Assembly: GCA_019234695.1 (NCBI GenBank)
Contig: GCA_019234695.1_3937.1
Direction: 5' to 3' (one strand)
Length of the DNA: 64,000 nt
Origin: a phage
Shown: positions 8,480 to 32,820 of the stretch, piece by piece
Layout of the letters: each line of letters opens with the position of its first letter
Numbering within the stretch: position 1 is the first letter of the stretch
Notes under the pieces: generated by a model
What the model was told of the DNA's origin: nothing
Seen by the model: the letters and a program-made list of their open reading frames with translations, nothing else
Database searches by the model: none
Translations under genes and position numbers: made by a program

Positions 8480-8686
8480 ATGCTTTATAGTCGTGAATTG
8501 ATGGTTACAACTAACGTTAACACAAAGGTAAAACGTTTTTACATGCAAGTATGTGGCGCATGGTCTAGAATATCAGAGGCTGACTATTGCAACTATGTAG
8601 AAACAGCTATAAACTCTAATTGCTACCTTACAAGAAATACAAGAAAGTACATAAGACAGACAGCAGTTTATTACTACGATGTCTAA
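8480..8686 (+). CDS. hypothetical small protein
   Basis: ORF track; conserved leader CTAAACTGGAGA..AAAATG; upstream TTGACA-17-TACTAT promoter. Confidence 0.5.
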   Translation: MLYSRELMVTTNVNTKVKRFYMQVCGAWSRISEADYCNYVETAINSNCYLTRNTRKYIRQTAVYYYDV

Positions 8687-8687
8687 T

Positions 8688-8777
8688 AAAGTACTTTACA
8701 AGGGGCTTAAAAGCTGATATCTTAAGCCCCAGATAAAGAGCTTTACCAAATCAACCCTTAAACTAGGAGATTCAAAA
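8688..8777 (+). repeat. cassette A copy 1 (stem-loop plus conserved leader)
   Basis: GTACTTTACAAGGGGCTTAAAAG...CTTAAGCCCCAGATAAAGAGCTTTACC...AAACTAGGAGATTCAAAAATG. Confidence 0.7.
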
Positions 8778-9161
8778 ATGGCATATCGTGCACCTAAATT
8801 CATCAACAAAGACAATTTCCGCAATGCACTGGAAAAATCACTTGATGAGAATTTTAAAGGTAACGTTATTGTTGTTCACTCGTTTAATTTTAAGTATGAT
8901 ATTAACGGGAATAAAATCAACCATTACACGGCGACAATGCTAGATGGTACTCTTTCAAGTGAAAAAGCCATTTTACATGCACTTGCTGGACGTGGTAAAA
9001 ACCTGATAAGATGCGATAAGAGACGTTATCAGGGTGGCGCATATGGTTACGATGATGCTGTTTATCATCTTGAAAATATGGGCTATCAAGTAGAAAAAGA
9101 TGGAGTGTCTCAAATAATCGGTAGTGATGGTTACGTAACTATCTTCAAAATTAACAAATAA
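8778..9161 (+). CDS. hypothetical protein
   Basis: ORF track; conserved leader AAACTAGGAGATTCAAAAATG. Confidence 0.55.
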   Translation: MAYRAPKFINKDNFRNALEKSLDENFKGNVIVVHSFNFKYDINGNKINHYTATMLDGTLSSEKAILHALAGRGKNLIRCDKRRYQGGAYGYDDAVYHLENMGYQVEKDGVSQIIGSDGYVTIFKINK

Positions 9162-9246
9162 AGTACTTTACAAGGGGCTTATAGTTCGATAAAGTAAGCC
9201 CCAGATAAAGAACTTTACCACTCAATCCTAAATTGGAGATTCAAAA
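9160..9246 (+). repeat. cassette A copy 2
   Basis: same element; stem GGGGCTTA / TAAGCCCC. Confidence 0.7.
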
Positions 9247-9480
9247 ATGGCTACTATCAAAAACGTTGTAATTCCTGTAAAAACTCGTGATGACGCTCGC
9301 ATCATGGCGAAAAAGTTAGGCGGGAAAGTGGTTGACAACGGAAAACAATCTGCTGTAAGATGGGGTGTGAGGGCTGATAAACAGTTGAAGTTAAAAAATT
9401 CACCAATAAATCTTTTTACATGTGTAAACACTATCGGAAAGACAAATGTATACACGATTTACAAGGGGCTTAAAAGTTGA
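9247..9480 (+). CDS. hypothetical small protein
   Basis: ORF track; conserved leader; 3-prime end runs into cassette A hairpin. Confidence 0.5.
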   Translation: MATIKNVVIPVKTRDDARIMAKKLGGKVVDNGKQSAVRWGVRADKQLKLKNSPINLFTCVNTIGKTNVYTIYKGLKS

Positions 9481-9536
9481 TACCTTAAGCCCCAGATAAA
9501 GAGCTTTACCACTAATCCTAAACTGGAGATTCAAAA
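9455..9536 (+). repeat. cassette A copy 3
   Basis: same element; overlaps 3-prime end of ORF 9247..9480. Confidence 0.7.
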
Positions 9537-10159: not shown

Positions 10160-10184
10160 CACTGGTTTTTAGATAGATTAAATT
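10156..10184 (+). promoter_or_regulatory. cassette B promoter (copy 1)
   Basis: TTGACA-17-TAAATT, then hairpin and conserved RBS. Confidence 0.55.
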
Positions 10185-10248
10185 ACACATCAACGGGGAG
10201 GCAATAAACACCCCACTAAATAAAGTCCTTAAACTAGGAGATTCTAAA

Positions 10249-10661: not shown

Positions 10662-10690
10662 TTGACACTGATTTTTAGATAGATTAAATT
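10662..10690 (+). promoter_or_regulatory. cassette B promoter (copy 2)
   Basis: TTGACA-17-TAAATT, then hairpin GGGGAGGGAATGACCTTCCCC and conserved RBS. Confidence 0.55.
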
Positions 10691-10754
10691 ACACATCAAC
10701 GGGGAGGGAATGACCTTCCCCACTAAGTAAAGTCCTTAAACTAGGAGATTCAAA

Positions 10755-10952: not shown

Positions 10953-10957
10953 CTGAT

Positions 10958-11046
10958 AAAGTACTTTACAAGGGGCTTAAAAGTTCGATAAAGTAAGCCC
11001 CAGATAAAGAGCTTTACCACTAAATCCTTAAACTAGGAGATTCAAA
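10958..11046 (+). repeat. cassette A copy 4
   Basis: same element upstream of ORF 11047. Confidence 0.7.
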
Positions 11047-11889: not shown

Positions 11890-11915
11890 ACAAGCCTGAT
11901 AAAAGTCTGTAAATT
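11887..11915 (+). promoter_or_regulatory. cassette B promoter (copy 3)
   Basis: TAGACA-17-TAAATT, then conserved hairpin and RBS. Confidence 0.45.
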
Positions 11916-11979
11916 ACACATCAACGGGGAGGGAATGACCTTCCCCACTAAATAAAGTCCTAAACTGGAGATTCTAAAA

Positions 11980-12520: not shown

Positions 12521-13051
12521 ATGAACAAGTTCAAAGCTATCAACTACATTCGCTCAAATAGTGTCATGTCTAAGCCTGTTAAGGATACCTACGAATTCCG
12601 TTGCAATGGTGAACACTTTGCTACCATCACCAAATCAAATAACGGGGCTTATTATATCCATCGTCGTAATGTTTCTACGGTTGTAGTTTCTAACTTTATG
12701 CAAGCTGTAGCGGAACTCCTCCCGCTCTTCTTAGAAAAGTATGCCGTACAGTGTGAAAGTGTTCGTGAATGCACTAAAACAGTGTTAAACGGTTATCGTA
12801 TGGCTTACGAGCGCTCTTTAAAGAATCTCAATAAATACTACAAAGCACCGGAAGGCACTTCATCCACAGCCTACGGGGTAGGGGGCTTCAATGTCAGCCT
12901 TTACGAAGTGGAAGAAATCGAGCTTTATGACCATCGCCCAAATGGTTACGCTAAGACACTGGGAGATGGGTTAATGCTGAATATCAAGAACTTAGAAAAA
13001 ACTTTAAGAGAAATTGAAAAAGATATTGACGAGACAATCAAAAGTCTGTAA
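12521..13051 (+). CDS. hypothetical protein
   Basis: ORF track; TTGCAA-17-TATAGT promoter and conserved leader upstream. Confidence 0.55.
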   Translation: MNKFKAINYIRSNSVMSKPVKDTYEFRCNGEHFATITKSNNGAYYIHRRNVSTVVVSNFMQAVAELLPLFLEKYAVQCESVRECTKTVLNGYRMAYERSLKNLNKYYKAPEGTSSTAYGVGGFNVSLYEVEEIELYDHRPNGYAKTLGDGLMLNIKNLEKTLREIEKDIDETIKSL

Positions 13052-13054
13052 ATT
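13026..13054 (+). promoter_or_regulatory. cassette B promoter (copy 4)
   Basis: TTGACG-17-TAAATT, then conserved hairpin and RBS. Confidence 0.5.
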
Positions 13055-13116
13055 ATCAATCAACGGGGAGGGAATAACCTTCCCCACTAAGTAAAGTCCT
13101 AAACTGGAGATTCAAA

Positions 13117-13380
13117 ATGGAACACGTAGAACTGACCACACTCTTACAAATCGCAACCGACAAGGAAGACGTAGCATTATTTCACCGTATAGAGAGTGAT
13201 TTGTTCAATGGTGAAATCATCAAAGAATCTTACGAAGTTGTCGGATTCAAAGATGGTAAAGCATTTGGCTTTTTTGACCTCGACAAAAGCAAAGCGGTTA
13301 CAAAGTACGATGTTCTATCTTGTGAGATTCTTACAAAATACAACGAAAAAAGGCTTGCAACATACGCCAACATGCAGTAA
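13117..13380 (+). CDS. hypothetical protein
   Basis: ORF track; cassette B upstream. Confidence 0.55.
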   Translation: MEHVELTTLLQIATDKEDVALFHRIESDLFNGEIIKESYEVVGFKDGKAFGFFDLDKSKAVTKYDVLSCEILTKYNEKRLATYANMQ

Positions 13381-13445: not shown

Positions 13446-13694
13446 ATGGCTACTATCCGCGCAACTGTTAACGAATTCGGCTTTTGCTCTCTGGATGTTA
13501 AATTTGACCTTGTAGGTACTGACAACGCCTTTGAGATGGTGAAAGGTCTTATCAGTCAGACCATCAAAGACTATAACCCTTCTGATGAGTTCTGGAAAGA
13601 AACAAAACAGGAAGTTCTCAAAGATGGTTATTCTTATCACTATTGGGGTGAAAAAATTGTCTCCCTATACTACGACAAAGATGGCACTAACTAA
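13446..13694 (+). CDS. hypothetical protein
   Basis: ORF track; cassette B upstream; followed by stem-loops. Confidence 0.55.
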   Translation: MATIRATVNEFGFCSLDVKFDLVGTDNAFEMVKGLISQTIKDYNPSDEFWKETKQEVLKDGYSYHYWGEKIVSLYYDKDGTN

Positions 13695-13704
13695 TCGACG
13701 CAAC

Positions 13705-13757
13705 GGGGCTAAATAGCCCCAGATACCTTAAAAGCTCCTTCTCATAGGGGCTTTTTT
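13705..13757 (+). terminator. stem-loops and T-tract after last small ORF
   Basis: GGGGCTAAATAGCCCC hairpin, then CATAGGGGCTTTTTT. Confidence 0.4.
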
Positions 13758-13759
13758 AC

Positions 13760-15290
13760 GTCTATAAAGAGACTCTATACAATCTCTTTCCTTCCCTTTC
13801 CAGAATCTATCCCACTGATTCGATAGAATCTATCTCGTACCTTAAAAGCAATAACTCTATAGCTTACTCTATAGCCCCTTATCAAATCAACTTAAATAAA
13901 AGCCAATAACCCCAGAAAGGGGATGGCCCATTTAAACGCTCTATAAAGCCCTATAACAGCCTTATCAACCTAACTTAAGGGATTGCATTACCTAACCATT
14001 AAAAGCCCTTTATAAAGCTTCCTAGAGGCTTAAAAGAATCTTATAAGGGTGTAAGCTTTATCATCTCGTTAGCTATCTTGTGAATAACTCAATAGCCCTT
14101 GATAGTCTCTAAAAAGTATGTTATAGGGGCTGTTAAGTTACTTTGAAGTTACGTAAAAGAGGCTATAAAGTTACGTAAATGCTAGCCCCCTTAACATTTT
14201 CTTAACAATTTCTTAACAAACCCTACATAGTTATGCTTGTTAGAGACTTATTAGCCCCTTGTTAAATCTCTGTTAAGACCACGTAAAAGCCTTGTAAGAG
14301 TCTTTAGCATAGCCTTTAAAGCCTCTGTAAAGCTCTATAAAGAGGTATCTGTACAGTTGGGGTGTAATTACTAGGAAGAGGCTTAAAAGGGCTTACAAGG
14401 AGCTATAGAGAGCTTTTAAGAGGTATGTTTAGAGAATCACTAAGAAAGAGAGGGAACGATAAGAAAAGAGATAGTGACCTTGTTAATAGCTTGTTAAAAA
14501 GATTAAACACTTGTTAGGAACTTGTTAATTATCCCTACAAAATAACTCTTTAAAATTAACTTGTTAGCTCTTGTTAGTCATCTGTTAAGCCTCTGTAAAG
14601 ACTATGTATCAACTGTTAAGAAACTGTTAAGCCCTTGTTAGTTCTGTTAAGAATCTGTTAAGACCTTTGAAGAGTTGTTAAGAAGATGTGAGAACTGTTA
14701 AGAGATTGTTAAGGATATTTTAAAATTTTGCAAAGTACTTGTAAGGGAGCTGTTAAGGGCTACCAAGCAGATATACATCTTCTACAGATATTTTTCAGTT
14801 CCTTCAAAGACCCTAAAAAATGACTTGATAGTCCTATTTTATAAAAATTTTAAAAATCTGAATAATTACCTAGACAGTCTTTTAAAAAATACAGGTAGAA
14901 ACAGGCTTATAAGATACCTTGTTAGTACCGTGTTAGACCTTGTGAGATAAGGTCTGTAAAGATATTCCTGTTAAGTTTGTTAAAACAGTCTATATAGAGG
15001 CTTAGTAATACCTAGTGAACACCTATAGAGAGTATCATAGCTGACATAGAGATTAAGGGGTGTATAGAGGCTTCTAAGAGCGTATAGAGAGATGGTTAAG
15101 GTGATTGTATAGGTTGTTAAGAAGGCTTGTTAGAAGAGTGTTTAGAGGGCTTATTAAAGGGCTAGTTAGAAGGCTTATACAGGGGGGCTATTAAGACCAC
15201 TAGATAGTTACTAAGATACTATATAGTACTATATAACTATATAGAGAGTAAGACTAAGGAGGTTGTTAAGAAGGATAGATATTTTGTTCA
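13760..15290. repeat. ORF-free iteron-rich region (degenerate CTGTTAAG / CTTGTTAG repeats; TATAGAG and TATAAAG motifs)
   Basis: no ORF of 60 aa or more on either strand across ~1.68 kb; about 35 copies of TGTTA(A/G), densest at 14470-14720. Confidence 0.7.
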
Positions 15291-15377
15291 CATATGCTGG
15301 TGACCCAGAGGTTGGGACAACCGATAAAATTTTATAAAAATTAAAAAGCCCCCGATTAAGGAGGCTCTTAAGATATT

Positions 15378-16001
15378 TTAAATCAGTGTTTCCAGAACTG
15401 TTTTAAGGGATGACTTAGTTGTCTGATAAAAATGAGTGAATCCGTTGTTGTTATCGAATATCTGCATCATGATATCATCTCCCTTGATTGGGTATACTCG
15501 GATATCATAGTGAAAACCATTAAAGACACAAGACCCATTACAGAATGCACTAAAGTCATCCACTGAGATATACTCTTCATGTCCTGTGATTTTTATACAA
15601 ACACCTTTACTCGGTCTCTTAGGGTTGATATCTTCCATCACAGACATACTCTGTCCACCAAGAGACACCATAGTGACCACTTTACGGTTCTTCTGTCTAA
15701 AGTACATCTTAACTTTCTGCAAAGTGTCTTCATAGAACGGATAAGACCTTTCTACAAAGATTCCTTCAAGTGGCTCTTTACCATTTTCAACTTCTCTGGT
15801 ATGTCGTACTGCAAAGATAATTTGTTGGAACCAGTCAAGATTTTCTTCGGAGAGTGCTTCTCGAACATCACTCCAGTCAAGGACTAAGTAGTTACCTTCA
15901 ACTTCTTTTAAGTTATCTTTTTCCATATCTATCACACCATTATCGTAAAACTTGATATTCTGGTACTGCGAATTTATTACTATTGTTCTTGATGAGGTCA
16001 T
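15378..16001 (-). CDS. hypothetical protein
   Basis: ORF track; first gene of leftward block; start may be an internal ATG. Confidence 0.5.
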   Translation of the reverse strand: MTSSRTIVINSQYQNIKFYDNGVIDMEKDNLKEVEGNYLVLDWSDVREALSEENLDWFQQIIFAVRHTREVENGKEPLEGIFVERSYPFYEDTLQKVKMYFRQKNRKVVTMVSLGGQSMSVMEDINPKRPSKGVCIKITGHEEYISVDDFSAFCNGSCVFNGFHYDIRVYPIKGDDIMMQIFDNNNGFTHFYQTTKSSLKTVLETLI

Positions 16002-25560: not shown

Positions 25561-25637
25561 ATCTCTGTTTAGCTCAGCTTGGTAGAGCGTTCCGTTTGGG
25601 GCGGTAAGGCCGGAGGTTCAAGTCCTCCAACAGAGAC
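25561..25637 (+). tRNA. tRNA-Pro (anticodon TGG)
   Basis: manual cloverleaf; acceptor CTCTGTT/AACAGAG, T-arm GGAGG-TTCAAGT-CCTCC, CCA encoded. Confidence 0.65.
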
Positions 25638-25644
25638 CAAATTA

Positions 25645-25722
25645 ATGTTCCAGTGGACAAAATGGTAAAGTCACCACTCTTTCAAAGTGGATATTTGAGG
25701 GTTCAAATCCCTTCTGGAACGC
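25645..25722 (+). tRNA. tRNA-Glu (TTC)
   Basis: manual fold; anticodon arm CCACT-CTTTCAA-AGTGG; T-loop TTCAAAT. Confidence 0.7.
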
Positions 25723-25728
25723 CAGTTT

Positions 25729-25802
25729 TGACAGAAGACCAATTACAGCAAACTTAATCTTATTCATCTGAAGGTAAATCGGACAAAGAAGAGATTTGGT
25801 CT
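25729..25802 (+). ncRNA. structured hairpin RNA E1 (Y RNA-like family)
   Basis: 5-prime ACAGAAGACCAATTACAGCAA pairs with 3-prime TTGGTCTGG; between tRNA-Glu and tRNA-Met. Confidence 0.45.
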
Positions 25803-25813
25803 GGTCATTAAGA

Positions 25814-25890
25814 ATTGCGGGTATAGAGAAAGGGCGTCTCACATGTCTCATTAGCATGGTATCGGCAGGTTCGACTCCTGCACCCGCCTC
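25814..25890 (+). tRNA. tRNA-Met (CAT), atypical
   Basis: anticodon arm CATGT-CTCATTA-GCATG; 1-72 mismatch and 3-nt connector before D-stem. Confidence 0.5.
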
Positions 25891-25895
25891 CAAAT

Positions 25896-25960
25896 TTACA
25901 GAAGACCGTTTACAGCAATATTTATTAAATTTTTAGCGGAAAAATTGAAAGATACGGTCT
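25896..25960 (+). ncRNA. structured hairpin RNA E2 (Y RNA-like family)
   Basis: 5-prime ACAGAAGACCGTTTACAGCAA pairs with 3-prime ACGGTCTGG; compensatory change relative to E1/E3. Confidence 0.45.
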
Positions 25961-25973
25961 GGTAATACTAAAC

Positions 25974-26050
25974 ATGGTTAGGAAGCACATAAGGTATGTG
26001 CGGTCGCCTGTTAAGCGAATGGCACAGGGTTCGAATCCCTGACTAACCGC
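25974..26050 (+). tRNA. tRNA-Asn (GTT)
   Basis: anticodon loop CTGTTAA; D-stem GCAC/GTGC; T-arm CAGGG-TTCGAAT-CCCTG. Confidence 0.7.
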
Positions 26051-26119
26051 CAAATTTAGGAGAGAAGCGATTGCTCACCGATTTGTAAGGTTCAAGTCCT
26101 TAGCCTGAATAGAAATCAA

Positions 26120-26207
26120 ATGTGTCGTTATCCCGTAGATGGTAGCGGTGGGGACTGTAAATCCCTTGTCATTGAGACTCGGTAGGTTCGACTCCTACAC
26201 GGCACAC
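26120..26207 (+). tRNA. tRNA-Tyr (GTA), long variable arm
   Basis: 88 nt; anticodon loop CTGTAAA; T-arm GTAGG-TTCGACT-CCTAC. Confidence 0.7.
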
Positions 26208-26213
26208 CAAATA

Positions 26214-26291
26214 AAGGTTATGTAGTTTAATCTGGTTAAAATACTCCCCTGTCACGGGAGATGATGAGGGTTCAAATCCCTTCATAACCGC
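26214..26291 (+). tRNA. tRNA-Asp (GTC)
   Basis: perfect acceptor GGTTATG/CATAACC; anticodon arm CTCCC-CTGTCAC-GGGAG. Confidence 0.8.
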
Positions 26292-26352
26292 CAATTTTGA
26301 GAGGGCTATTTAGCCCCTCCCTTAAAGAGTTCTTACGAGTATTCTTTAAAGG

Positions 26353-26426
26353 AGCAGAAGACCAAATACAGCAAGCATGTATGAAATTTCAAACCAATTC
26401 AATTTTGAAAATTTAAAACTTGGTCT
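26353..26426 (+). ncRNA. structured hairpin RNA E3 (Y RNA-like family)
   Basis: 5-prime CAGAAGACCAAATACAGCAA pairs with 3-prime TTGGTCTGG. Confidence 0.45.
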
Positions 26427-26438
26427 GGCTCAACAAAT

Positions 26439-26571
26439 TTACAGAAGACCGTTTACAGCAAAACTTAAACAATCTATTTCTCCGGTAAAGAAAAGGCGAG
26501 GGTTCGATTCCTTCACTCGGCAGATGTCGAGTTGGTGTAATGGTAGCACTTAAGATGATAAACAACGGTCT
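26439..26571 (+). ncRNA. candidate Y RNA (YrlA-like) with permuted tRNA-like module
   Basis: terminal stem AGACCGTT / AACGGTCT; internal order T-arm (GAGGG-TTCGATT-CCTTC), ACTCGGC, 4-nt loop, GTCGAGT, D-arm (GTGTAATGGTAGCAC). Confidence 0.5.
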
Positions 26572-26573
26572 GG

Positions 26574-26716
26574 TAATTATCTTTGTAGATAAGTTATTAA
26601 GCTTACCTGTGAGTATGCGACCACAAAGGGTGAATGGGTAAATTCTAGATTTAAACCCAAAAAGGCACATCGCTACAGACCTTAAGCAAGTCTGGGTAGC
26701 TTATCTACAAAGATAA
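26574..26716 (+). ncRNA. long hairpin element with 18-bp terminal inverted repeat
   Basis: ATTATCTTTGTAGATAAG (26574-26591) is the exact reverse complement of CTTATCTACAAAGATAAT (26699-26716); ~107 nt interior with sub-hairpins. Confidence 0.4.
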
Positions 26717-26720
26717 TTTA

Positions 26721-26796
26721 ATGGAAGTGTAGCAGAATGGTGATGCGGCAGACTTTTAATCTGACAGGCGATGGGTTCGAATCCCTCCACTTCTAC
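26721..26796 (+). tRNA. tRNA-Lys (TTT), weak T-stem
   Basis: anticodon loop CTTTTAA; acceptor GGAAGTG/CACTTCT; T-stem has two mismatches. Confidence 0.55.
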
Positions 26797-26800
26797 CAAT

Positions 26801-26877
26801 ATGGTTCAGTCGCAGATAAGGTAATGCAAGGGTCTCATAAGCCCTATGAATGTGGGTTCGATTCCCATCTGAACCTC
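26801..26877 (+). tRNA. tRNA-Met (CAT)
   Basis: perfect acceptor GGTTCAG/CTGAACC; anticodon arm AGGGT-CTCATAA-GCCCT. Confidence 0.7.
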
Positions 26878-26878
26878 C

Positions 26879-26954
26879 AAGCTGGTATAGTTAAGAAGGT
26901 TATAACACTCCCCTGATAAGGGAACATCGGTGGTTCGATTCCACCTACCAGTAC
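26879..26954 (+). tRNA. tRNA-Ile (GAT)
   Basis: anticodon loop CTGATAA; T-arm GGTGG-TTCGATT-CCACC. Confidence 0.75.
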
Positions 26955-26969
26955 CAATTTCAATAAAGT

Positions 26970-26998
26970 TGTTGACATTGAGATGTGACTACTTTATA
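26970..26998 (+). promoter_or_regulatory. internal sigma70-like promoter within tRNA cluster
   Basis: TTGACA-17-TATAGT after tRNA-Ile; precedes ~200 nt tRNA-free structured segment. Confidence 0.55.
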
Positions 26999-27200
26999 GT
27001 AACCTTAGTTTTCGTTGCGTAGCGTCTATTTTGCAAATTTAAAATAAATGCAAACGACAATGTTTTTCTGGCAGTAGCTTGATAGGCTAAACACCAGTGA
27101 GGTCTTCCAATCCCTCATCAAAGAATTTGGCGTACTCGCCCACGGTATGATTAATAAGGTGGGCATCTTTAAGGGCTTTCTAAGAGAGTCTTTAAAGATA

Positions 27201-27277
27201 ATGCACCCTTAGTTCAATTGGATAGAGCAACGGTCTTCTAAATCGTTAGTTACAGGTTCGAATCCTGTAGGGTGTAC
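27201..27277 (+). tRNA. tRNA-Arg (TCT)
   Basis: anticodon arm ACGGT-CTTCTAA-ATCGT; T-arm ACAGG-TTCGAAT-CCTGT. Confidence 0.8.
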
Positions 27278-27419
27278 CAAATAGTTAGCAGATTACTTAG
27301 ACGGCCTTAGCGGGTCTTCCTGTAGGGAGGTGGTCTGTATCTCATGTTTTCCAGAACATGTAAATAATCTGAGAAGGAGCTTGACAGTGTTGAGATAACA
27401 GGGTAAGCTTCGAATTATA

Positions 27420-27502
27420 ATATGGGACGATGTTAAGACTCTAAGGCATGAGCAACGGCCTCCAAAACCGTTTCAAAGGGGTTCAACTCCTCCGTCCCAT
27501 GC
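27420..27502 (+). tRNA. tRNA-Trp (CCA)-like, atypical
   Basis: perfect acceptor ATGGGAC/GTCCCAT; anticodon loop CTCCAAA; ~7 extra nt between acceptor and D-arm. Confidence 0.45.
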
Positions 27503-27515
27503 CAAAGTCTTATTA

Positions 27516-27603
27516 GGGGTAGGTAGCGGCTAATGGTAGCCAAACTGTCTTGAAAACAGTTGCCACTGTAGAGATACGGTGAGGGTTCGACTCCTTTACT
27601 TAC
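27516..27603 (+). tRNA. tRNA-Ser (TGA), long variable arm
   Basis: anticodon arm ACTGT-CTTGAAA-ACAGT; 20-nt variable arm; CCA not encoded. Confidence 0.75.
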
Positions 27604-27757
27604 CGCCTAATAAGATTTACTCCGTCCATGCTTGTTCGCATTGTCGGTTTATCCCTCGTGTATTGTCGTACACTGTCAAAGCACCTAGTAGGTGTCACGG
27701 AGAAGAGATAATATCAAGCTCTCCAAAGGTTCTAGTCACCGGATTAAACAAGACTAT

Positions 27758-27780
27758 GCAAAGACCTATTTAGGTCTTTT
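27758..27780 (+). terminator. terminator-like hairpin inside tRNA cluster
   Basis: AGACCTA-TT-TAGGTCT followed by TTTTT. Confidence 0.45.
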
Positions 27781-27859
27781 TAGAGGGCTTCTAAGGTTAT
27801 TAGTCGCTTGTTGTGGAACCTTGTTGCTTAGGTTCTTAGAAGTTCTCTAAAAAGATTTA

Positions 27860-27937
27860 ATGGGAGATTGACGGTAATTGGTAAACCTACCATCCTTAGA
27901 AGTTGGTGTTTGAGGGTTCGAATCCCTTGTCTCCTAC
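27860..27937 (+). tRNA. tRNA with anticodon TAG (Leu by anticodon), short variable arm
   Basis: acceptor GGGAGAT/GTCTCCT; anticodon loop CTTAGAA; discriminator A; 5-nt variable region. Confidence 0.5.
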
Positions 27938-27944
27938 CAAATTA

Positions 27945-28020
27945 ATGCAGGTGTAGCAAAATGGTTATGCGGCTGACTCTTAATCAGTAAGACGATGGGT
28001 TCAATTCCCTCCACCTGTAC
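27945..28020 (+). tRNA. tRNA-Lys (CTT), weak T-stem
   Basis: paralog of 26721..26796; anticodon arm GCTGA-CTCTTAA-TCAGT. Confidence 0.55.
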
Positions 28021-28026
28021 CAAACA

Positions 28027-28102
28027 TTGGGGATGTAGTTTACATGGTTAAAACATAAGTTTTGCAAACTTAAGTACAGGGTTCAATTCCCTGCTTCTCC
28101 AC
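28027..28102 (+). tRNA. tRNA-Ala (TGC)
   Basis: anticodon arm TAAGT-TTTGCAA-ACTTA; T-arm CAGGG-TTCAATT-CCCTG. Confidence 0.7.
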
Positions 28103-28108
28103 CAATTA

Positions 28109-28183
28109 GTGCATCCATAGTTTAAACGGGAAAATTACAGTCTTCCAAACTGAGGTTGAGGGTTCGATTCCCTCTGGATGCTC
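28109..28183 (+). tRNA. tRNA-Gly (TCC)
   Basis: perfect acceptor GCATCCA/TGGATGC; anticodon loop CTTCCAA; 75 nt. Confidence 0.7.
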
Positions 28184-28189
28184 CAAACA

Positions 28190-28266
28190 ATGCTGCTTTC
28201 GTATAATTGGCTATTACACATCCCTTGTAAGGATGGAAATGCAGGTTCGAGTCCTGTGAGCAGCAC
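28190..28266 (+). tRNA. tRNA-Thr (TGT)
   Basis: anticodon arm CATCC-CTTGTAA-GGATG; T-arm GCAGG-TTCGAGT-CCTGT. Confidence 0.8.
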
Positions 28267-28269
28267 CAA

Positions 28270-28357
28270 TTCAGAGGTCAAGTGAAAGACCGCTTTGAGT
28301 CAACTGAAGACCGTAACAAATACCACGGAGTTGAGTTAGCGGCACAACTTCAGACCT
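28270..28357 (+). ncRNA. structured hairpin RNA E5 (divergent member)
   Basis: outer stem CAGAGGTC / GACCTCTG; internal CTGAAGACCGTAACAAA resembles the E-family 5-prime motif. Confidence 0.35.
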
Positions 28358-28362
28358 CTTTC

Positions 28363-28437
28363 ATACTCGCTTAGTTTATATGGTAAAACATCACCCTTAC
28401 AAGATGAAGAAAAAGGTTCAAGTCCTTTAGTGAGTAC
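28363..28437 (+). tRNA. tRNA-Val (TAC)
   Basis: anticodon loop CTTACAA; T-arm AAAGG-TTCAAGT-CCTTT. Confidence 0.7.
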
Positions 28438-28438
28438 C

Positions 28439-28516
28439 ATGTTCCAGTATCCCAATTGGCAGAGGATGCAAGCTCAAACCTTGTATTAGTGACGGTTCGA
28501 ATCCGTCTTGGAACAC
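28439..28516 (+). tRNA. tRNA with anticodon CAA (Leu by anticodon), short variable arm
   Basis: acceptor GTTCCAG/TTGGAAC; anticodon arm GCAAG-CTCAAAC-CTTGT; discriminator A. Confidence 0.5.
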
Positions 28517-28521
28517 CAATT

Positions 28522-28597
28522 TTGCAGGATTAGTTCAAATGGAAAGAGCAACAGTCTACGAAGCTGTTAATAGGGGTTCGAATCCCTTATCCTGCGC
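28522..28597 (+). tRNA. tRNA-Arg (ACG)
   Basis: perfect acceptor GCAGGAT/ATCCTGC; anticodon loop CTACGAA. Confidence 0.8.
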
Positions 28598-28616
28598 CAG
28601 ATAAAAAGGTGATACT

Positions 28617-28859
28617 ATGCAAACATTAACAGTAGTTGAACATGAAAACTGTGAGAGTATTGAGTTTGTCAGGGTCATTGGTGTTGAACACCACATTTTC
28701 TTAAAAGTGGGATACTTATGCGACCCCGCTAGAGTAGAAAGATTTATACGTGATTGTTTTGGTGGTAGACATCTGAAGAGTGTTATTTTTGAGACAGTTT
28801 TACCAGAAGGTTTAGAAACGAATAATAACATTTACCTCCTTACGAGGATTAGACAATGA
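28617..28859 (+). CDS. hypothetical small protein embedded in tRNA cluster
   Basis: ORF track; AAAGGTG RBS-like upstream. Confidence 0.4.
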   Translation: MQTLTVVEHENCESIEFVRVIGVEHHIFLKVGYLCDPARVERFIRDCFGGRHLKSVIFETVLPEGLETNNNIYLLTRIRQ

Positions 28860-29413
28860 GATACTTAAAGTATGCTTCATGGATTTTCTTAGCTTTGTTA
28901 GAGCCATTTGCAGCAATCTTAGCAGTTATCTTAGCACCTTTTGTAGTTCCATTCTACAGTGAGAAGAAAGGACACTTACCTTTCGGGTTCAGATGGATGG
29001 AGACATATGACAACCCAATTGATGGTGATGAAGGTCACGTTAAAAGATGGGCTAATATTAGATGGATTGGTAAACTAGGTGTCTACATGCAAAGAGTCGG
29101 ATGGCTCTGGAGAAACAAAGCTTATAACTTCTCTTACCATGTATTAGGAAGAGATGTAAGAGATGTTACTAAGTGGAAAGGTAATATCAACGTAAGTTCT
29201 AACCCTGAAGATAATCAGACTGGTTATCTCCTAATGTGGAACAGTAATGCTTGGGGATTATTCGCTTTTATCCCATCAATTAAAGTCTTCGGTAAACAGT
29301 TTTACTGGAGAATTTATGTTGGATGGAAACTTAAAAGTGTTGTCCCAGAAGAAAGAGCATTCTCAAGGGAAAGAGTTATGTTGGCATTCTTTATTCATCC
29401 ACTGAGAAAGTAA
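28856..29413 (+). CDS. hypothetical membrane protein embedded in tRNA cluster
   Basis: ORF track; hydrophobic N-terminus; 4-nt start/stop overlap with upstream ORF. Confidence 0.5.
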   Translation: MRYLKYASWIFLALLEPFAAILAVILAPFVVPFYSEKKGHLPFGFRWMETYDNPIDGDEGHVKRWANIRWIGKLGVYMQRVGWLWRNKAYNFSYHVLGRDVRDVTKWKGNINVSSNPEDNQTGYLLMWNSNAWGLFAFIPSIKVFGKQFYWRIYVGWKLKSVVPEERAFSRERVMLAFFIHPLRK

Positions 29414-29420
29414 AGATTTA

Positions 29421-29496
29421 AAGGGGATTAGTTTACAAGGTTAAAACCTCGGTCTTTGAAATCGAAGAAGTTGGTTCAATTCCAACATCCCCCGCC
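29421..29496 (+). tRNA. tRNA-Gln (TTG)
   Basis: anticodon arm TCGGT-CTTTGAA-ATCGA; T-arm GTTGG-TTCAATT-CCAAC; weak 1-72 pair. Confidence 0.65.
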
Positions 29497-29498
29497 AA

Positions 29499-29577
29499 TG
29501 CTCCATTACTCCAATTGGCAGAGAGGCCAGACTTAAAATCTGTGTTATGTATCGGTTCGAATCCGATATGGAGTACC
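29499..29577 (+). tRNA. tRNA with anticodon TAA (Leu by anticodon), short variable arm
   Basis: acceptor GCTCCAT/ATGGAGT; anticodon loop CTTAAAA; 7-nt variable region; discriminator A. Confidence 0.5.
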
Positions 29578-29582
29578 AAATT

Positions 29583-29658
29583 TAGCGGTATAGCATAACT
29601 GGCAATGCAGCAGTCTCTGAAGCTGTCCTATTAAGGTTCAAATCCTTATGCCGCTGCC
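29583..29658 (+). tRNA. tRNA-Gln (CTG)
   Basis: D-stem GCAT/ATGC; anticodon loop CTCTGAA; T-arm TAAGG-TTCAAAT-CCTTA. Confidence 0.6.
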
Positions 29659-29689
29659 ACTTCTAAGGATTCTTACGAGAGTCCTTAAA

Positions 29690-29765
29690 TGTGGCCTTAT
29701 CATAAATGGTAATGCCCCATGCTGTGAACATGGTCTATACGGGTTCAAATCCCGTAGGTCACCCC
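29690..29765 (+). tRNA. tRNA-His (GTG)
   Basis: perfect anticodon arm CCATG-CTGTGAA-CATGG; T-arm ACGGG-TTCAAAT-CCCGT. Confidence 0.75.
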
Positions 29766-29771
29766 AATTTA

Positions 29772-29847
29772 TAGTCCAAGTAGCTTATATGGTTAAAGCG
29801 CGTGTCTGAAAAACATGAGAAGAGGGTTCAAATCCCACTGGACTACC
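29772..29847 (+). tRNA. tRNA-Phe (GAA)
   Basis: anticodon loop CTGAAAA; D-stem GCTT/AAGC; acceptor register ambiguous by 1 nt. Confidence 0.65.
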
Positions 29848-29864
29848 AATTTCAAAGGTGCTTA

Positions 29865-30599
29865 ATGAAAGAGATGACAGAACAAGGTAAGGAGATTTTC
29901 AATCTCTTAAAAACCGGTAAAGGGTTTTCTAACCCCCTTATTACTGGTGCAGCAGTTCTCGGTGGAACCGTAGCTGCCTCTACATCACTTGTAAGCTCTA
30001 TTAGCTCTGTATCAGACCCTACAGTAAAGGATAAGCTTGTTGCTGCTGGACTTACAACAGTTCTGCTTAACAGCTTTACCACGAGTCTGACAAGCACTAC
30101 ATCAACTACCAAAACACTAACAGATTACGGTCAAAAGTCCATTGATGAGTTTTCATCACGTATGCAGGTAGCAAAAGGTTACTCTAATGTTATGGGTGCA
30201 GCAGGTGAACAAGTTGGCTGTACACCATTTAGTGGTATTATGGGTGTTGCTACAGAGTATGGTCAAAAAACTATTGATACGATTAACAGTGCACTAGATA
30301 GTGTTAATGGTGTGTTAAGTGACTTACAAGATGCTATTGACAAAGGTCTTGATACTATTTCTGATTTAGCTGAGCAAGCTGTTAGTAAGATTAATGAAGG
30401 TATTTCAAAAATTACAGCTTATGCAGATGAAGTTGTGCAGATGATTGAAGAAGAAGCTGCTCTTATTGCAGAGTACCTTAAAACGAATATCAATGGGTTC
30501 TTAGCAGGTATCTTACCAGACTGGTTTGATGATGCTTGTAAAACTGGTGTAATTGACACTATTGCAACACCAGAAATGAAGAACGCATTACAGAAATAA
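29865..30599 (+). CDS. hypothetical Ser/Thr/Ala-rich protein embedded in tRNA cluster
   Basis: ORF 29802..30599 trimmed to internal ATG at 29865 because upstream part overlaps tRNA-Phe. Confidence 0.5.
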   Translation: MKEMTEQGKEIFNLLKTGKGFSNPLITGAAVLGGTVAASTSLVSSISSVSDPTVKDKLVAAGLTTVLLNSFTTSLTSTTSTTKTLTDYGQKSIDEFSSRMQVAKGYSNVMGAAGEQVGCTPFSGIMGVATEYGQKTIDTINSALDSVNGVLSDLQDAIDKGLDTISDLAEQAVSKINEGISKITAYADEVVQMIEEEAALIAEYLKTNINGFLAGILPDWFDDACKTGVIDTIATPEMKNALQK

Positions 30600-30601
30600 A
30601 T

Positions 30602-30694
30602 GGAAGATTAACCCTAAAAGGTAAGGGAGCAGTTTGCTAAACTGCCAGTAGCTGAGAAATCGGTGTACCAGTTCAAGTCTGGTATCTTCCTCCA
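30602..30694 (+). tRNA. tRNA-Ser (GCT), long variable arm
   Basis: 93 nt; perfect acceptor GGAAGAT/ATCTTCC; perfect anticodon arm GCAGT-TTGCTAA-ACTGC. Confidence 0.8.
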
Positions 30695-30698
30695 ATTT

Positions 30699-30774
30699 GA
30701 ATCCGTGACAGAAACGGCTATGTGCCTGTCTGCAAAACAGGTTTATAAGGGTTCGAGTCCCTTCGGATTCTCCA
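30699..30774 (+). tRNA. tRNA-Cys (GCA)
   Basis: perfect acceptor GAATCCG/CGGATTC; perfect anticodon arm CCTGT-CTGCAAA-ACAGG. Confidence 0.8.
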
Positions 30775-30996: not shown

Positions 30997-31197
30997 ATGA
31001 GCGAGACCGTTTATAAAGAACTTTATGAAGCTAATAAAAAGCTAGAATTTATGCAGAATACTATCATGGCAATTGCAGACAGATTGTCTGTAGCAACAGG
31101 TATTGATATTAAAGAAGCATCTATGGATGCACTTCTTGATGCTGTTGATGCAAAGTTCGAAGTTAAGAAAGAAGAGACTGCTACAGACTCTGAATAA
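30997..31197 (+). CDS. hypothetical small acidic protein upstream of terminase
   Basis: ORF track; 66 aa; too small to call a small terminase confidently. Confidence 0.4.
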   Translation: MSETVYKELYEANKKLEFMQNTIMAIADRLSVATGIDIKEASMDALLDAVDAKFEVKKEETATDSE

Positions 31198-31218
31198 TTC
31201 TATTTGCGGAGGTGCTTA

Positions 31219-32820
31219 ATGGACTTAAATGCTGTTAAGCAGAAGCGAGTGGAAGATGTTAGGAAAGTCCTAGCTGGAGAGTTGGGGCTTTCTGATGAAG
31301 TAAAAGAAATTATTAAATCATTCGGTAAAGACCCCTCTAAATTCCTTCCAACTCAAATTCTGACTTTATTAAGATACACACCAGACCAAGTTCGCCTTAT
31401 CTTTAAATTGATGACTGATAAGAATTATGTAGCCCCTCAGCCGGGTTCTCAAGAGGTCTTTTTAAATACTAATGCTGACTTGGTTCTCTATGGTGGTGCT
31501 GCGGGTGCTGGTAAGACTGCTGCATTGTTAATGGACTCTTTAAGGTTTATTGATGACCCTAATTATAATGCTGTATATTTCCGTCGAAATACAACACAGC
31601 TACAAGGTGGTTTGTGGCCTGCTGCAAAGAAACTATTTGGTAAGTTTGGTGGGGTTCCTCACGAGCAGAAGATGACTATCACATTCCCTTCTGGGGCAAC
31701 TATCAAGTTTACCTATCTAGAGCTTGAAAAGCACGCTGAAGGTCATCAGGGTATTGAGTATTCAGCTATTTACTTTGACGAAGGTACTCACTTCTCTGCT
31801 TCACAGATTTCATACCTACAGACTCGTCTACGTTCTGGGGCTGAAGGTGATTCATACATGAAGATTTCTATGAACCCAGACAGAGACCACTTTATTTACG
31901 ATTGGGTAGAACCATTCTTAGATGAAGAAGGTTACCCAGACCCTGAAAAGTGTGGTCGTATTCGTTGGTATGTAATGAATGATGGTGTTATGGTTTCTGA
32001 TTGGGAGAGAGACAAGATTCTTGAAATGTTTCCTCTTGAGATTCCTCAAACATATACATTCATCTCTGGTACGATTGATGATAACCCAATTCTTGACTTC
32101 TTAGAACCTAAATATCGTGGTAAGTTGGAAAACAACACCCCTGTAAACGTTGCAAGACTTCGTTTCGGTAACTGGAAGGCTCGTGCAGAAGGTTCAAACT
32201 ATTGGCAAAGACAATGGTGTGAAATTGTTGATTCACTCCCAGAAGATGTATTCGATGTCAGAGCATGGGACTTAGCAGCAACTTTACCATCTGAGATTAA
32301 CCCTAACCCAGACTGGACAGCAGGTGTTAAGATGGGTAAATCTAAAAAAGACGGTTGCTATTATATCATTGATGTAGTAAGATTTAGAGATAGACCCTCT
32401 GGAGTCGAAACACAAATTAATTTGACTGCTGAAAGTGACGGTAAGCGAACTGGTATTTTTATCCCTCAAGACCCAGGCGCTGCTGGTAAATCCTACGCAA
32501 CATCCCTCATCAGGAAACTTGCCGAGAAAGGTTATCGAGCAAGAGCTAAACCAACAAATAAAGACAAAGTTACCCGATTTGCGGGGTTTTCTGCTGCTTC
32601 TGAAGCTGGACTTGTAAAAGTCTTGAGAGGTAGTTGGAACGAAGCTTACTTTCAAGAACTTGAAGGTTTTTGTGGTGATGGTAAAACTAAAGATGACCAA
32701 GTGGATGCTACCAGTGATGCTTTCAACAGTCTTAACGAAGTTAAATTATTCAAGCCACCATCAATGGGTGCTCACACAGACTTAGTGAGAGGAAACCCAT
32801 ATGAGGGGCTTAGACGTTGA
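31219..32820 (+). CDS. terminase large subunit
   Basis: Walker A-like LVLYGGAAGAGKTAAL; size and position before portal; start moved to ATG 31219 after GGAGGTG RBS. Confidence 0.8.
   Translation: MDLNAVKQKRVEDVRKVLAGELGLSDEVKEIIKSFGKDPSKFLPTQILTLLRYTPDQVRLIFKLMTDKNYVAPQPGSQEVFLNTNADLVLYGGAAGAGKTAALLMDSLRFIDDPNYNAVYFRRNTTQLQGGLWPAAKKLFGKFGGVPHEQKMTITFPSGATIKFTYLELEKHAEGHQGIEYSAIYFDEGTHFSASQISYLQTRLRSGAEGDSYMKISMNPDRDHFIYDWVEPFLDEEGYPDPEKCGRIRWYVMNDGVMVSDWERDKILEMFPLEIPQTYTFISGTIDDNPILDFLEPKYRGKLENNTPVNVARLRFGNWKARAEGSNYWQRQWCEIVDSLPEDVFDVRAWDLAATLPSEINPNPDWTAGVKMGKSKKDGCYYIIDVVRFRDRPSGVETQINLTAESDGKRTGIFIPQDPGAAGKSYATSLIRKLAEKGYRARAKPTNKDKVTRFAGFSAASEAGLVKVLRGSWNEAYFQELEGFCGDGKTKDDQVDATSDAFNSLNEVKLFKPPSMGAHTDLVRGNPYEGLRR

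What the first reader, a model, noticed from the sequence alone, without database searches (positions are those of the whole stretch)
13695..15377. 1.7 kb ORF-free region saturated with degenerate CTGTTAAG-type iterons
A phage genome that is otherwise densely coding has ~1.68 kb with no ORF of 60 aa or more on either strand, sitting between the rightward small-ORF region and the leftward gene block. It holds about 35 copies of TGTTA(A/G), often as CTGTTAAG, CTTGTTAG or CCTTGTTA, in both orientations, with a very dense array at 14470-14720. Flanking sub-regions are rich in CTATAAAG, TATAGAG and TTAGAAG. The motifs themselves supply stop codons in all frames. Candidate functions include a replication origin, a binding array for a phage or host DNA-binding protein, a transcription factor or nucleoid-protein sink, or a long noncoding RNA locus.
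Basis: seen in the sequence. Interest (0 to 1): 0.8.

Follow-up and report, generated by a model that had tools for sequence, protein, structure and literature searches.

The report
Phage genome-end repeat with motif arrays
The 1.7 kb gene-free stretch is where this Felix O1-like phage's linear genome begins and ends: a 580-bp terminal repeat with non-coding flanks, filled with short motifs spaced one DNA turn apart that most likely guide cutting and packaging of the DNA.

Summary
Window 13695-15377 has no ORF longer than 41 aa. It holds 30 TGTTA(A/G) copies (27 forward, 3 reverse) against 2.9±1.6 in shuffles, and 66 CTNNNNAG octamers against about 13 expected.

The window is a Felixounavirus. 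The ORF-free state is conserved in more than 200 relatives across at least three Ounavirinae genera, so this is not gene decay.

By homology to records with determined ends, the direct terminal repeat (DTR) maps to 14185-14764. It is flanked by 490 and 613 bp of non-coding DNA, and inward-facing terminators close both convergent gene blocks.

Inside the DTR:
- YTGTTAAG cores are better conserved than the spacers (96% vs 83%).
- The cores are phased at 10.4 bp.
- They point outward toward both cut sites.
- AAGCAGATATACA lies immediately outside the right cut.

Most likely these are cis-acting signals for concatemer cutting and packaging, analogous to the C(C/A/T)TAAAG arrays around T7's terminal repeat. 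The binding protein is unknown.

The DTR is already published for this genus. I found no description of the array architecture. Moderate interest.

The parts
13695..15377 (.). The whole ORF-free concatemer-junction region between the convergent gene blocks: left flank, direct terminal repeat (DTR) and right flank.
   Evidence: The ORF-free state holds in 18 homologs, whose longest ORFs are 29-62 aa. The region is as conserved as the flanking coding DNA: 80-87% vs 80-90% identity.
13730..13758 (+). Rho-independent terminator closing the rightward small-gene block: a 9-bp stem AAAAGCTCC/GGGGCTTTT followed by a T-run.
   Evidence: Read from the sequence. The homologous site in ASO1A is annotated as a terminator by TransTermHP/WebGeSTer.
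13695..14184 (.). Left flank. In the virion this unique DNA adjoins the right-end DTR copy. It carries CTTAAAAG, CTATAAAG and CTCTATAG-type octamers (18 CTNNNNAG sites) with 11.1-bp periodicity.
   Evidence: 0.6% of 1000 random placements reached the observed periodicity power.
14141..14179 (+). Two copies of CT(T/A)T(G/A)AAGTTACGTAAA, 22 bp apart, ending 5 bp before the left cut. Each contains the palindrome TTACGTAA.
   Evidence: repeat family D18. ACGTAAA(A/T)GCTA|GCCCCC is conserved at the left boundary in the relatives where the true boundary was displayed.
14185..14764 (.). The 580-bp direct terminal repeat, present once in this collapsed, circularly opened sequence.
   Evidence: Mapped from the 581-bp DTR annotated in Pr103Blw. 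At least 8 independent records start at this position or carry both copies. In UAB_Phi87, Bal31 digestion and run-off sequencing gave a 608-bp DTR (PMC4837284), and my in-silico SpeI end fragments agree within about 3%. The Kolesnikvirus SPARTY record has an exact 439-bp DTR with homologous boundaries.
14190..14219 (-). Three reverse-oriented (C)TTAACA copies of the TGTTAAG motif at 11-bp spacing, starting 5 nt inside the left cut. They point toward that cut.
   Evidence: Mostly 3 copies (range 2-5) are found in the homologs with a detectable left boundary.
14481..14757 (+). Dense forward YTGTTA(A/G) array of 16 copies. The last 12 (14562-14757) are phased at 10.4 bp. The final copy ends 7 nt inside the right cut.
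   Evidence: Fourier power was 9.6 of a maximum 12, and 0 of 5000 null arrays reached it. The spacing pattern 9-11-20-20-11 is conserved in relatives, with a closely similar pattern (11-11-9-20-20-20-11) in the Kolesnikvirus locus L034. Cores are 96.4% conserved vs 82.9% for other DTR positions.
14727..14759 (.). Right arm of an imperfect inverted repeat whose left arm is 14188-14220 (33 nt, 73% complementary). The two ends of the DTR therefore mirror each other.
   Evidence: inverted repeat I3, also I4 and I10.
14765..14777 (+). AAGCAGATATACA, immediately outside the right DTR boundary. Candidate cleavage or recognition site.
   Evidence: Present at the boundary in 8 of 8 relatives chosen by BLAST, including Mooglevirus and Kolesnikvirus. 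It is also invariant in 30 IMG/VR homologs, but those were retrieved with this pattern, so that invariance is by construction.
14765..15377 (.). Right flank. In the virion this unique DNA adjoins the left-end DTR copy. It carries 7 forward TGTTAR copies, TATAGAG/CTATATAG motifs, AGATAT repeats and AT-rich tracts (14835-14868, 15326-15347).
   Evidence: Periodicity here is not significant.
15344..15369 (-). Rho-independent terminator closing the leftward gene block.
   Evidence: The homologous site in ASO1A is annotated as a terminator.
31204..32820 (+). Large terminase subunit, the presumed trans-acting nuclease and motor that cuts at the DTR boundaries.
   Evidence: Pfam Terminase_6N and Terminase_6C, and PHROG 979. 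It is 99.3% identical to Felix O1 TerL. No small terminase subunit is annotated in the relatives examined or in the literature.

Best explanation
This region is the concatemer junction, that is the genome-terminus region, of a Felix O1-like myovirus that packages unit-length DNA with short exact direct terminal repeats.

Layout. In the window's circularly opened sequence the repeat is present once, at 14185-14764. The virion DNA would start at 14185 and, after one trip round the map, end at 14764. The repeat has non-coding flanks of 490 bp (left) and 613 bp (right). Inward-facing terminators on both sides shield it from transcription by the two convergent gene blocks.

Likely signals. The YTGTTAAG copies inside the repeat lie on one face of the helix (10.4-bp phase). 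They point outward toward both cut sites: three reversed copies begin 5 nt from the left cut, and about 19 forward copies run up to 7 nt from the right cut. Together with the conserved AAGCAGATATACA just outside the right cut, I take these to be the cis-acting signals on which the packaging machinery assembles. That machinery would be the large terminase plus an unidentified DNA-binding partner.

Proposed mechanism. The complex cuts the concatemer at both repeat boundaries. The repeat is then regenerated, probably by staggered nicks and strand-displacement synthesis as proposed for T7.

What is shown: the identity and coordinates of the repeat (by homology), and the selection on, phasing of and orientation of the motifs.

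What is inferred: that the motifs bind a packaging protein, and how the repeat is duplicated.
For: Termini
- Pr103Blw annotates a 581-bp DTR inside the homologous ORF-free gap, and its two copies are identical.
- Records from several laboratories start exactly at the position equivalent to window 14185, or carry both copies.
- DTR sizes of 581, 608 and 613 bp have been published for this genus.
- In UAB_Phi87 the Bal31-sensitive SpeI fragments were 4322 and 2819 bp. I predict 4435 and 2747 bp from the homologous boundaries.
- Kolesnikvirus SPARTY has an exact 439-bp DTR whose boundaries are homologous.

Selection on the motifs
- Core positions are 96.4% conserved vs 82.9% for other DTR positions (Mann-Whitney p about 1e-13).
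- 16-22 copies per DTR are retained in the Felixounavirus- and Mooglevirus-like homologs, down to about 75% sequence identity; the Kolesnikvirus locus keeps 12-13.
- The spacing pattern and the 10.2-10.6-bp phase are kept in all 29 homologs tested.

Geometry
- The two DTR ends form an inverted repeat, so motif copies face each cut.
- Predicted DTR lengths in relatives mostly cluster at about 570, 580, 591, 602, 613, 623 and 633 bp (638 and 658 fall outside). This is gain or loss of whole 10-11-bp units.

Precedent
- T7 has 17 same-orientation C.TAAAG heptamers in and beside its 160-bp terminal repeat.

Other
- The TGTTAR cluster is unique within the 64-kb window.
Against: - No reads or end-mapping exist for this isolate, so the boundaries are transferred by homology.
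- No protein is shown or predicted to bind the motifs. No small terminase is recognisable, and the neighbouring genes match only families of unknown function.
- Higher conservation of repeated cores can be partly inflated when an aligner anchors on repeats.
- The invariance of AAGCAGATATACA in the IMG/VR set is by construction, because those loci were retrieved with that pattern.
- As far as I know, the function of the analogous T7 arrays is itself not established.
- The arrays in the two flanks (CTATAAAG, TATAGAG and related types) are not explained by a cut-site model.
Confidence: 0.75

Rival explanations
1. Replication origin. The short repeats would act as iterons for a phage or host initiator, and the AT-rich tracts (14835-14868, 15326-15347) would be the unwinding element. 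This could coexist with the terminus function.
For: The region is large, conserved and non-coding, with phased repeats and AT-rich tracts. It lies where transcription converges.
Against: - Only one DnaA-box match, at chance level, and no IHF consensus.
- The repeat unit is 8 bp at 10-11-bp spacing, not the 17-22-bp unit typical of iterons.
- The flanking genes have no recognisable initiator domain.
- The densest array abuts the cut sites and is oriented toward them, which an origin does not require.
- GC skew simply follows gene orientation.
Confidence: 0.12
2. End-management platform unrelated to cutting. The arrays would bind a phage or host protein that protects the linear ends from exonucleases, anchors the last-packaged end in the portal or tail, paces DNA ejection, or promotes repeat-to-repeat recombination into concatemers.
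For: In the virion the dense array forms roughly the last 280 bp of the right end, and the reversed copies form the first 35 bp of the left end. One-face phasing suits a cooperative protein coat. Length variation in 10-11-bp units shows that the repeats recombine or slip.
Against: No candidate protein is known. Recombination needs only homology, not oriented motifs. The mirror arrangement, at nearly the same short distance from each cut (5 and 7 nt), fits positioning of a nuclease better than generic coating.
Confidence: 0.15
3. A locus for one or more non-coding RNAs.
For: A long, conserved non-coding stretch. A few weak sigma-70-like sites lie inside it, for example a leftward CTTACA-17-TAAAAT at 14745-14717.
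Against: - Promoter-like sites are no more frequent than in shuffles: 10 found vs 11.7 expected.
- No Rfam family matches. The only hit is a sub-threshold Phe_leader overlapping the terminator, E = 0.39.
- Conservation is concentrated in oriented DNA motifs with helical phasing, not in paired columns.
- The virion DNA is physically discontinuous within the region.
Confidence: 0.03
4. Decayed or frameshifted genes, or a sequencing or assembly artefact.
For: A few records annotate tiny ORFs here, 25-55 aa long.
Against: 207 of 286 matching phage records cover at least 80% of the region. The ORF-free state is conserved across at least three genera. The tiny annotated ORFs differ from record to record.
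Confidence: 0.01

Closest known systems
Phage T7 concatemer junction: 160-bp terminal repeat with short-repeat arrays (SRL/SRR in Dunn & Studier 1983, cited from my own knowledge; sequence checked)
   Same: - Short exact direct terminal repeat.
- Non-coding DNA on both sides of it.
- Many copies of one oriented 7-8-bp motif, ending in TAAAG or TTAAG, within and beside the repeat at about one copy per 10-13 bp.
   Different: - No sequence relationship was detected: no T7-like record appeared among the blastn hits.
- T7's heptamers are mostly outside the repeat, all in one orientation, with a 13-bp period.
- Here the main array is inside the repeat, phased at 10.4 bp, and mirrored toward both cuts.
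- This region is 1.7 kb and closed off by terminators, whereas T7's ends carry promoters.
Phage P1 pac site: seven TGATC(A/G) hexamers flanking the cut (Sternberg & Coulby, cited from my own knowledge)
   Same: Short repeated motifs arranged on both sides of a terminase cleavage site.
   Different: P1 packages by the headful mechanism, giving permuted ends. Its motifs are Dam methylation sites and the site is about 160 bp. Here the ends are exact and the repeat is regenerated.
SPP1 pacL/pacR boxes and lambda cosB R-sites, bound by small terminase subunits (from my own knowledge)
   Same: Phased short repeats next to the cut, on which a packaging protein assembles and positions the nuclease.
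   Different: Those systems have identified small subunits, and lambda also uses IHF. No small subunit is recognisable here, there is no IHF consensus, and there are far more repeat copies.
Iteron-type replication origins (lambda ori, plasmid oriV)
   Same: Directly repeated, helically phased protein-binding motifs in non-coding DNA that contains AT-rich tracts.
   Different: The repeat unit is much shorter, there is no adjacent initiator gene and no DnaA or IHF module, and the arrays coincide with the genome termini.

Membership tests
Short exact direct-terminal-repeat (T7-type DTR) genome ends | Fixed physical ends at unique sequence positions | tested here: met
   Shown by homology only. 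Independent records start at the position equivalent to window 14185. Bal31 digestion and run-off sequencing in UAB_Phi87 agree with my in-silico SpeI fragments. SPARTY's boundaries are homologous. No reads were available for this isolate.
Short exact direct-terminal-repeat (T7-type DTR) genome ends | The same sequence at both ends of the virion DNA | tested here: met
   In homolog records the two copies are identical: 581/581 in Pr103Blw and 439/439 in SPARTY.
Short exact direct-terminal-repeat (T7-type DTR) genome ends | Large terminase belonging to a DTR-type clade | tested here: met
   The window's TerL is 99.3% identical to Felix O1 TerL. PMC4837284 places Felix O1 TerL in a Felix O1-like DTR cluster.
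Short exact direct-terminal-repeat (T7-type DTR) genome ends | Read-start pile-ups and doubled coverage over the repeat in this isolate | not testable with these tools
   No sequencing reads were available.
T7-like short-repeat arrays at the terminal repeat | Many copies of one oriented 7-8-bp motif in and beside the repeat | tested here: met
   for this phage, and for T7.
T7-like short-repeat arrays at the terminal repeat | Sequence homology to the T7-group junction | tested here: not met
   No Autographiviridae record was among the 286 blastn matches. This is an analogy, not a family relationship.
Iteron-type replication origin | Iterons plus a cognate initiator gene nearby | tested here: not met
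   The unit is 8 bp at 10-11-bp spacing. The seven ORFs flanking the region or adjacent to TerL match only PHROG families of unknown function and no Pfam domain.
Iteron-type replication origin | DnaA boxes, IHF site and AT-rich unwinding element | tested here: inconclusive
   One DnaA box (chance level) and no IHF consensus. AT-rich tracts are present.
Iteron-type replication origin | Replication initiates here | not testable with these tools
   This needs marker-frequency analysis or 2D gels.
Headful pac site (P1/P22/SPP1 type) | Circularly permuted, terminally redundant ends | tested here: not met
   Relatives have exact, non-permuted ends.
Curated structured RNA families (Rfam 15) | Match to a covariance model | tested here: not met
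   The only hit is a sub-threshold Phe_leader (24.8 bits against a gathering score of 55) that overlaps the terminator.

The most novel reading that the evidence does not exclude
The roughly 1.7-kb lattice of helically phased CTNNNNAG/YTGTTAAG sites could be the docking platform for a packaging-recognition protein unrelated to canonical small terminases. That protein might be the 66-aa product encoded directly upstream of TerL, or an early protein. It would coat one face of the junction DNA and present both repeat boundaries, in mirror orientation, to the large terminase. This would be a 'TerS-less' mode of site recognition conserved across the Ounavirinae genera sampled here.
Probability: 0.15. 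Interest if true: 0.65.

Novelty: new member of a known kind. Interest (0 to 1): 0.4.

Why it matters
Felix O1-like phages are widely used for Salmonella and E. coli typing, biocontrol and therapy. How they recognise and cut their DNA is nevertheless unknown, and no small terminase has been identified.

This analysis places the terminal repeat in the 1.7-kb gap. It also defines candidate cis signals: the phased, outward-facing YTGTTAAG arrays, the AAGCAGATATACA box, and the ACGTAAA-GCTA|GCCCCC left boundary. That gives concrete targets for packaging assays, for engineering (safe insertion sites, packaging-competent vectors), and for opening and annotating these genomes correctly.

It also explains why assemblies of this group often break or are opened arbitrarily at this place.

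Tried and rejected
- Intrinsic DNA curvature. A wedge-model calculation (Bolshoy-Trifonov parameters recalled from memory, so approximate) gave the dense array a mean of 16.7° against a window mean of 19°. There is no sign that phasing reflects bent DNA.
- Host-factor sites. There is no IHF consensus in the region and one DnaA box at chance level.
- Promoters and RNA. Sigma-70-like sites are at chance level and there is no Rfam family match.
- Binding protein. PHROG and Pfam scans of the flanking genes and the 66-aa ORF upstream of TerL returned only families of unknown function. A homolog search for the 66-aa ORF found only near-identical proteins, so I did not attempt structure prediction. 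A Pharokka-annotated relative has no small terminase.
- Literature. Eight full-text searches found the DTR sizes but no description of the gap or its arrays. The Bas63 knockout screen reports genes only, and its supplement is not held.
- UAB_Phi87 record. It does not start at the DTR and does not annotate it, so I tested the published end fragments in silico instead.
- A first regex for the left boundary picked a second, similar site (TTA|GCCCCTTGTTAA at about 14251). This was corrected.

Full report
**What is there.** Window 13695-15377 lies between a rightward block of small genes, whose last ORF ends at 13694, and a leftward block, whose last ORF ends at 15378. The longest ORF on either strand is 41 aa.

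TGTTA(A/G) occurs 30 times, 27 forward and 3 reverse. Dinucleotide-preserving shuffles give 2.9±1.6 (maximum 9). The density is ten times that of the rest of the window, and no other 500-bp bin of the 64 kb approaches it.

The more general unit is a degenerate octamer, CTNNNNAG. There are 66 sites against about 13 expected. Neighbour spacings of 10-12 and 21-23 bp dominate.

**Whose genome, and is the gap conserved.** The region matches 256 phage records by megablast and 286 by blastn. Nearly all are Ounavirinae, mostly Felixounavirus, at 73-93% identity. The window opens just upstream of rIIA, the convention used for Felix O1.

Relatives show the same gap between the same convergent genes, with predicted terminators at both edges. 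The same holds in Mooglevirus and in Kolesnikvirus, the Erwinia phage Ea21-4 group. Across 18 homologs the longest ORF in the gap is 29-62 aa. The gap is as conserved as the flanking coding DNA, 80-87% against 80-90%. Gene decay or sequencing error is therefore excluded.

**What it is.** Phage Pr103Blw annotates a 581-bp "short direct terminal repeat" at both ends of its record. Its first gene is the homolog of the window's 15378 gene, and its last gene is the homolog of the 13694 gene. The two copies are identical, and the joined ends align collinearly to the window. This places the repeat at 14185-14764. The boundaries read ...GTAAATGCTA|GCCCCCTTAACA... on the left and ...GTTAAGGGCTACC|AAGCAGATATACA... 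on the right.

Records from other laboratories start at exactly the same position or carry both copies: Ro111lw, CRP22, NBEco005, E9, D4, I14.1, H12 and ZX4221. Published DTR sizes for the genus are 581, 608 and 613 bp. The 608-bp value for UAB_Phi87 came from Bal31 digestion and run-off sequencing.

Transferring my boundaries to the UAB_Phi87 record predicts a 614-bp repeat and terminal SpeI fragments of 4435 and 2747 bp. The reported Bal31-sensitive fragments are 4322 and 2819 bp. This is close but not exact.

In the Kolesnikvirus SPARTY the record ends define an exact 439-bp repeat. Its boundaries are homologous...GGTTA|GCCAC... and ...CCACT|AAGCAGATATACA.

The gap is therefore the concatemer junction: 490 bp of left flank, a 580-bp DTR and 613 bp of right flank. 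For this isolate the coordinates rest on homology only.

**Anatomy of the arrays.** TGTTAR belongs mainly to the repeat. The window has 19 forward and 3 reverse copies in the DTR, 7 in the right flank and 1 in the left flank. The same distribution is seen in Mooglevirus and Kolesnikvirus. The consensus is YTGTTAAG(A).

- **Left end.** The three reversed copies sit at 11-bp spacing, starting 5 nt inside the left cut.
- **Right end.** The forward copies run up to 7 nt inside the right cut.
- **Mirror symmetry.** The two ends of the repeat form an imperfect inverted repeat, 14188-14220 against 14727-14759 (33 nt, 73% complementary). The motif copies therefore point outward to both cuts.
- **Phasing.** The last 12 forward copies (14562-14757) are phased at 10.4 bp. 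Their Fourier power is 9.6 of a possible 12, and 0 of 5000 null arrays reached it.
- **Conservation of phase.** Every homolog tested shows a 10.2-10.6-bp phase. The spacing pattern 9-11-20-20-11 recurs, with a closely similar pattern in the Kolesnikvirus locus, which aligns at only 49% identity overall.
- **Flanks.** CTNNNNAG sites are periodic at 11.1-11.2 bp in the left flank and the left part of the DTR. They are not significantly periodic in the right flank.

**Selection.** Within the DTR, motif-core positions are 96.4% conserved across 17 relatives, against 82.9% for other positions (Mann-Whitney p about 1e-13). Aligners anchoring on repeats may inflate this somewhat.

The Felixounavirus- and Mooglevirus-like homologs keep 16-22 copies per repeat down to about 75% identity; the Kolesnikvirus locus keeps 12-13. 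Predicted repeat lengths in relatives mostly cluster at about 570, 580, 591, 602, 613, 623 and 633 bp. This means gain or loss of whole 10-11-bp units. Two values, 638 and 658 bp, fall outside the series.

AAGCAGATATACA lies directly outside the right cut in all 8 relatives chosen by BLAST. Its invariance in the 30 IMG/VR loci is by construction, because I retrieved them with that pattern.

**How it most likely works.** Shown: this is the terminal-repeat region, and the motifs are selected, phased and oriented with respect to the two cut sites. Inferred: the arrays and boundary boxes are the cis signals on which the packaging complex assembles. That complex would include TerL (31204-32820; Terminase_6N/6C) and an unknown DNA-binding partner.

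The mirror arrangement would present both repeat boundaries in equivalent geometry, so nicks could be made on opposite strands. Strand-displacement synthesis between the nicks would then regenerate the repeat. This is the classical proposal for T7, cited from my own knowledge. The inward-facing terminators would keep RNA polymerase off the complex.

I put about 0.93 on the identity of the region and about 0.5 on the packaging-signal reading of the arrays.

**Rivals.**
- **Origin of replication.** Not excluded, but it lacks its usual modules.
- **End protection, ejection or recombination platform.** Compatible with the position of the arrays at the extreme virion ends, but it explains the mirror geometry less well.
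- **Intrinsic bending.** Not supported by an approximate wedge model.
- **RNA.** Nothing points to one.

**Comparison with known systems.** The closest analogue is the T7 junction. In the T7 record the first 480 nt hold 17 same-orientation C.TAAAG heptamers, three inside the 160-bp repeat and a 13-bp-period run beside it. Further copies precede the right-end repeat.

The resemblance is architectural only, since no T7-group record appears among the blastn matches. P1 pac, SPP1 pac and lambda cosB share the principle of short repeats flanking a terminase cut. They belong to other packaging modes, and their binding proteins are known.

**Novelty.** The terminal repeat of Felix O1-like phages is published and annotated in some records. 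The original Felix O1 paper only inferred "short terminal repeats" and did not discuss the gap. I found no description of the gap's array architecture in eight full-text searches.

I therefore rate this a new, better-resolved member of a known kind, of moderate interest. It turns the unknown packaging recognition of a widely used phage group into testable elements.

Noticed in passing
window 8685-8748, 9157-9220, 9448-9511, 10956-11019; and 10170-10247, 10676-10753, 11901-11978, 13040-13117: Two families of repeated intergenic cassettes (64 nt and 78 nt) lie between the small early genes. Each has a GC-rich hairpin, GGGGCTTAAAAG...AAGCCCC or GGGGAGGGAATGACCTTCCCC, followed by a ribosome-binding region. 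They correspond to the direct repeats reported for Felix O1. The first 30 nt of the ORF-free gap (GGGGCTAAATAGCCCCAGATA) resemble the first family.
   Followed up: partly
window 30997-31197 (+): A 66-aa ORF lies directly upstream of the large terminase gene. It matches PHROG 4397 (unknown function) and no Pfam domain, and only near-identical homologs were found. Its position is where small-terminase genes usually sit. This is speculative.
   Followed up: partly
window 14246-14266: A second site, CTTATTA|GCCCCTTGTTAAATC, resembles the left repeat boundary ATGCTA|GCCCCCTTAACATTT. Here it is followed by forward rather than reversed motif copies. It is conserved in relatives. Its meaning is unknown.
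   Followed up: no
GenBank GU169904.1 (Staphylococcus phage SA1), 135884-136463: A record labelled as a Staphylococcus phage holds a 91%-identical copy of this Felix O1-like terminal repeat. This suggests a chimeric or contaminated assembly.
   Followed up: no
window 25563-30774: A cluster of 26 tRNA genes, all on the + strand, lies between the leftward block and the structural genes.
   Followed up: no
Relatives: KC139528, KC139543, KC139640, MN850636, OL825705 and others: Several draft contigs and 'complete' records break or are opened inside or within about 300 bp of the gap. This is consistent with assemblers stumbling over the doubled-coverage repeat.
   Followed up: partly
window 14729-14735 and 14716-14735: TGCAAAG, within GATATTTTAAAATTTTGCAAAG, is invariant in all 19 aligned sequences including the Kolesnikvirus locus. 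It lies between the last motif copies, about 30 bp from the right cut. A weak leftward promoter-like site overlaps it.
   Followed up: no
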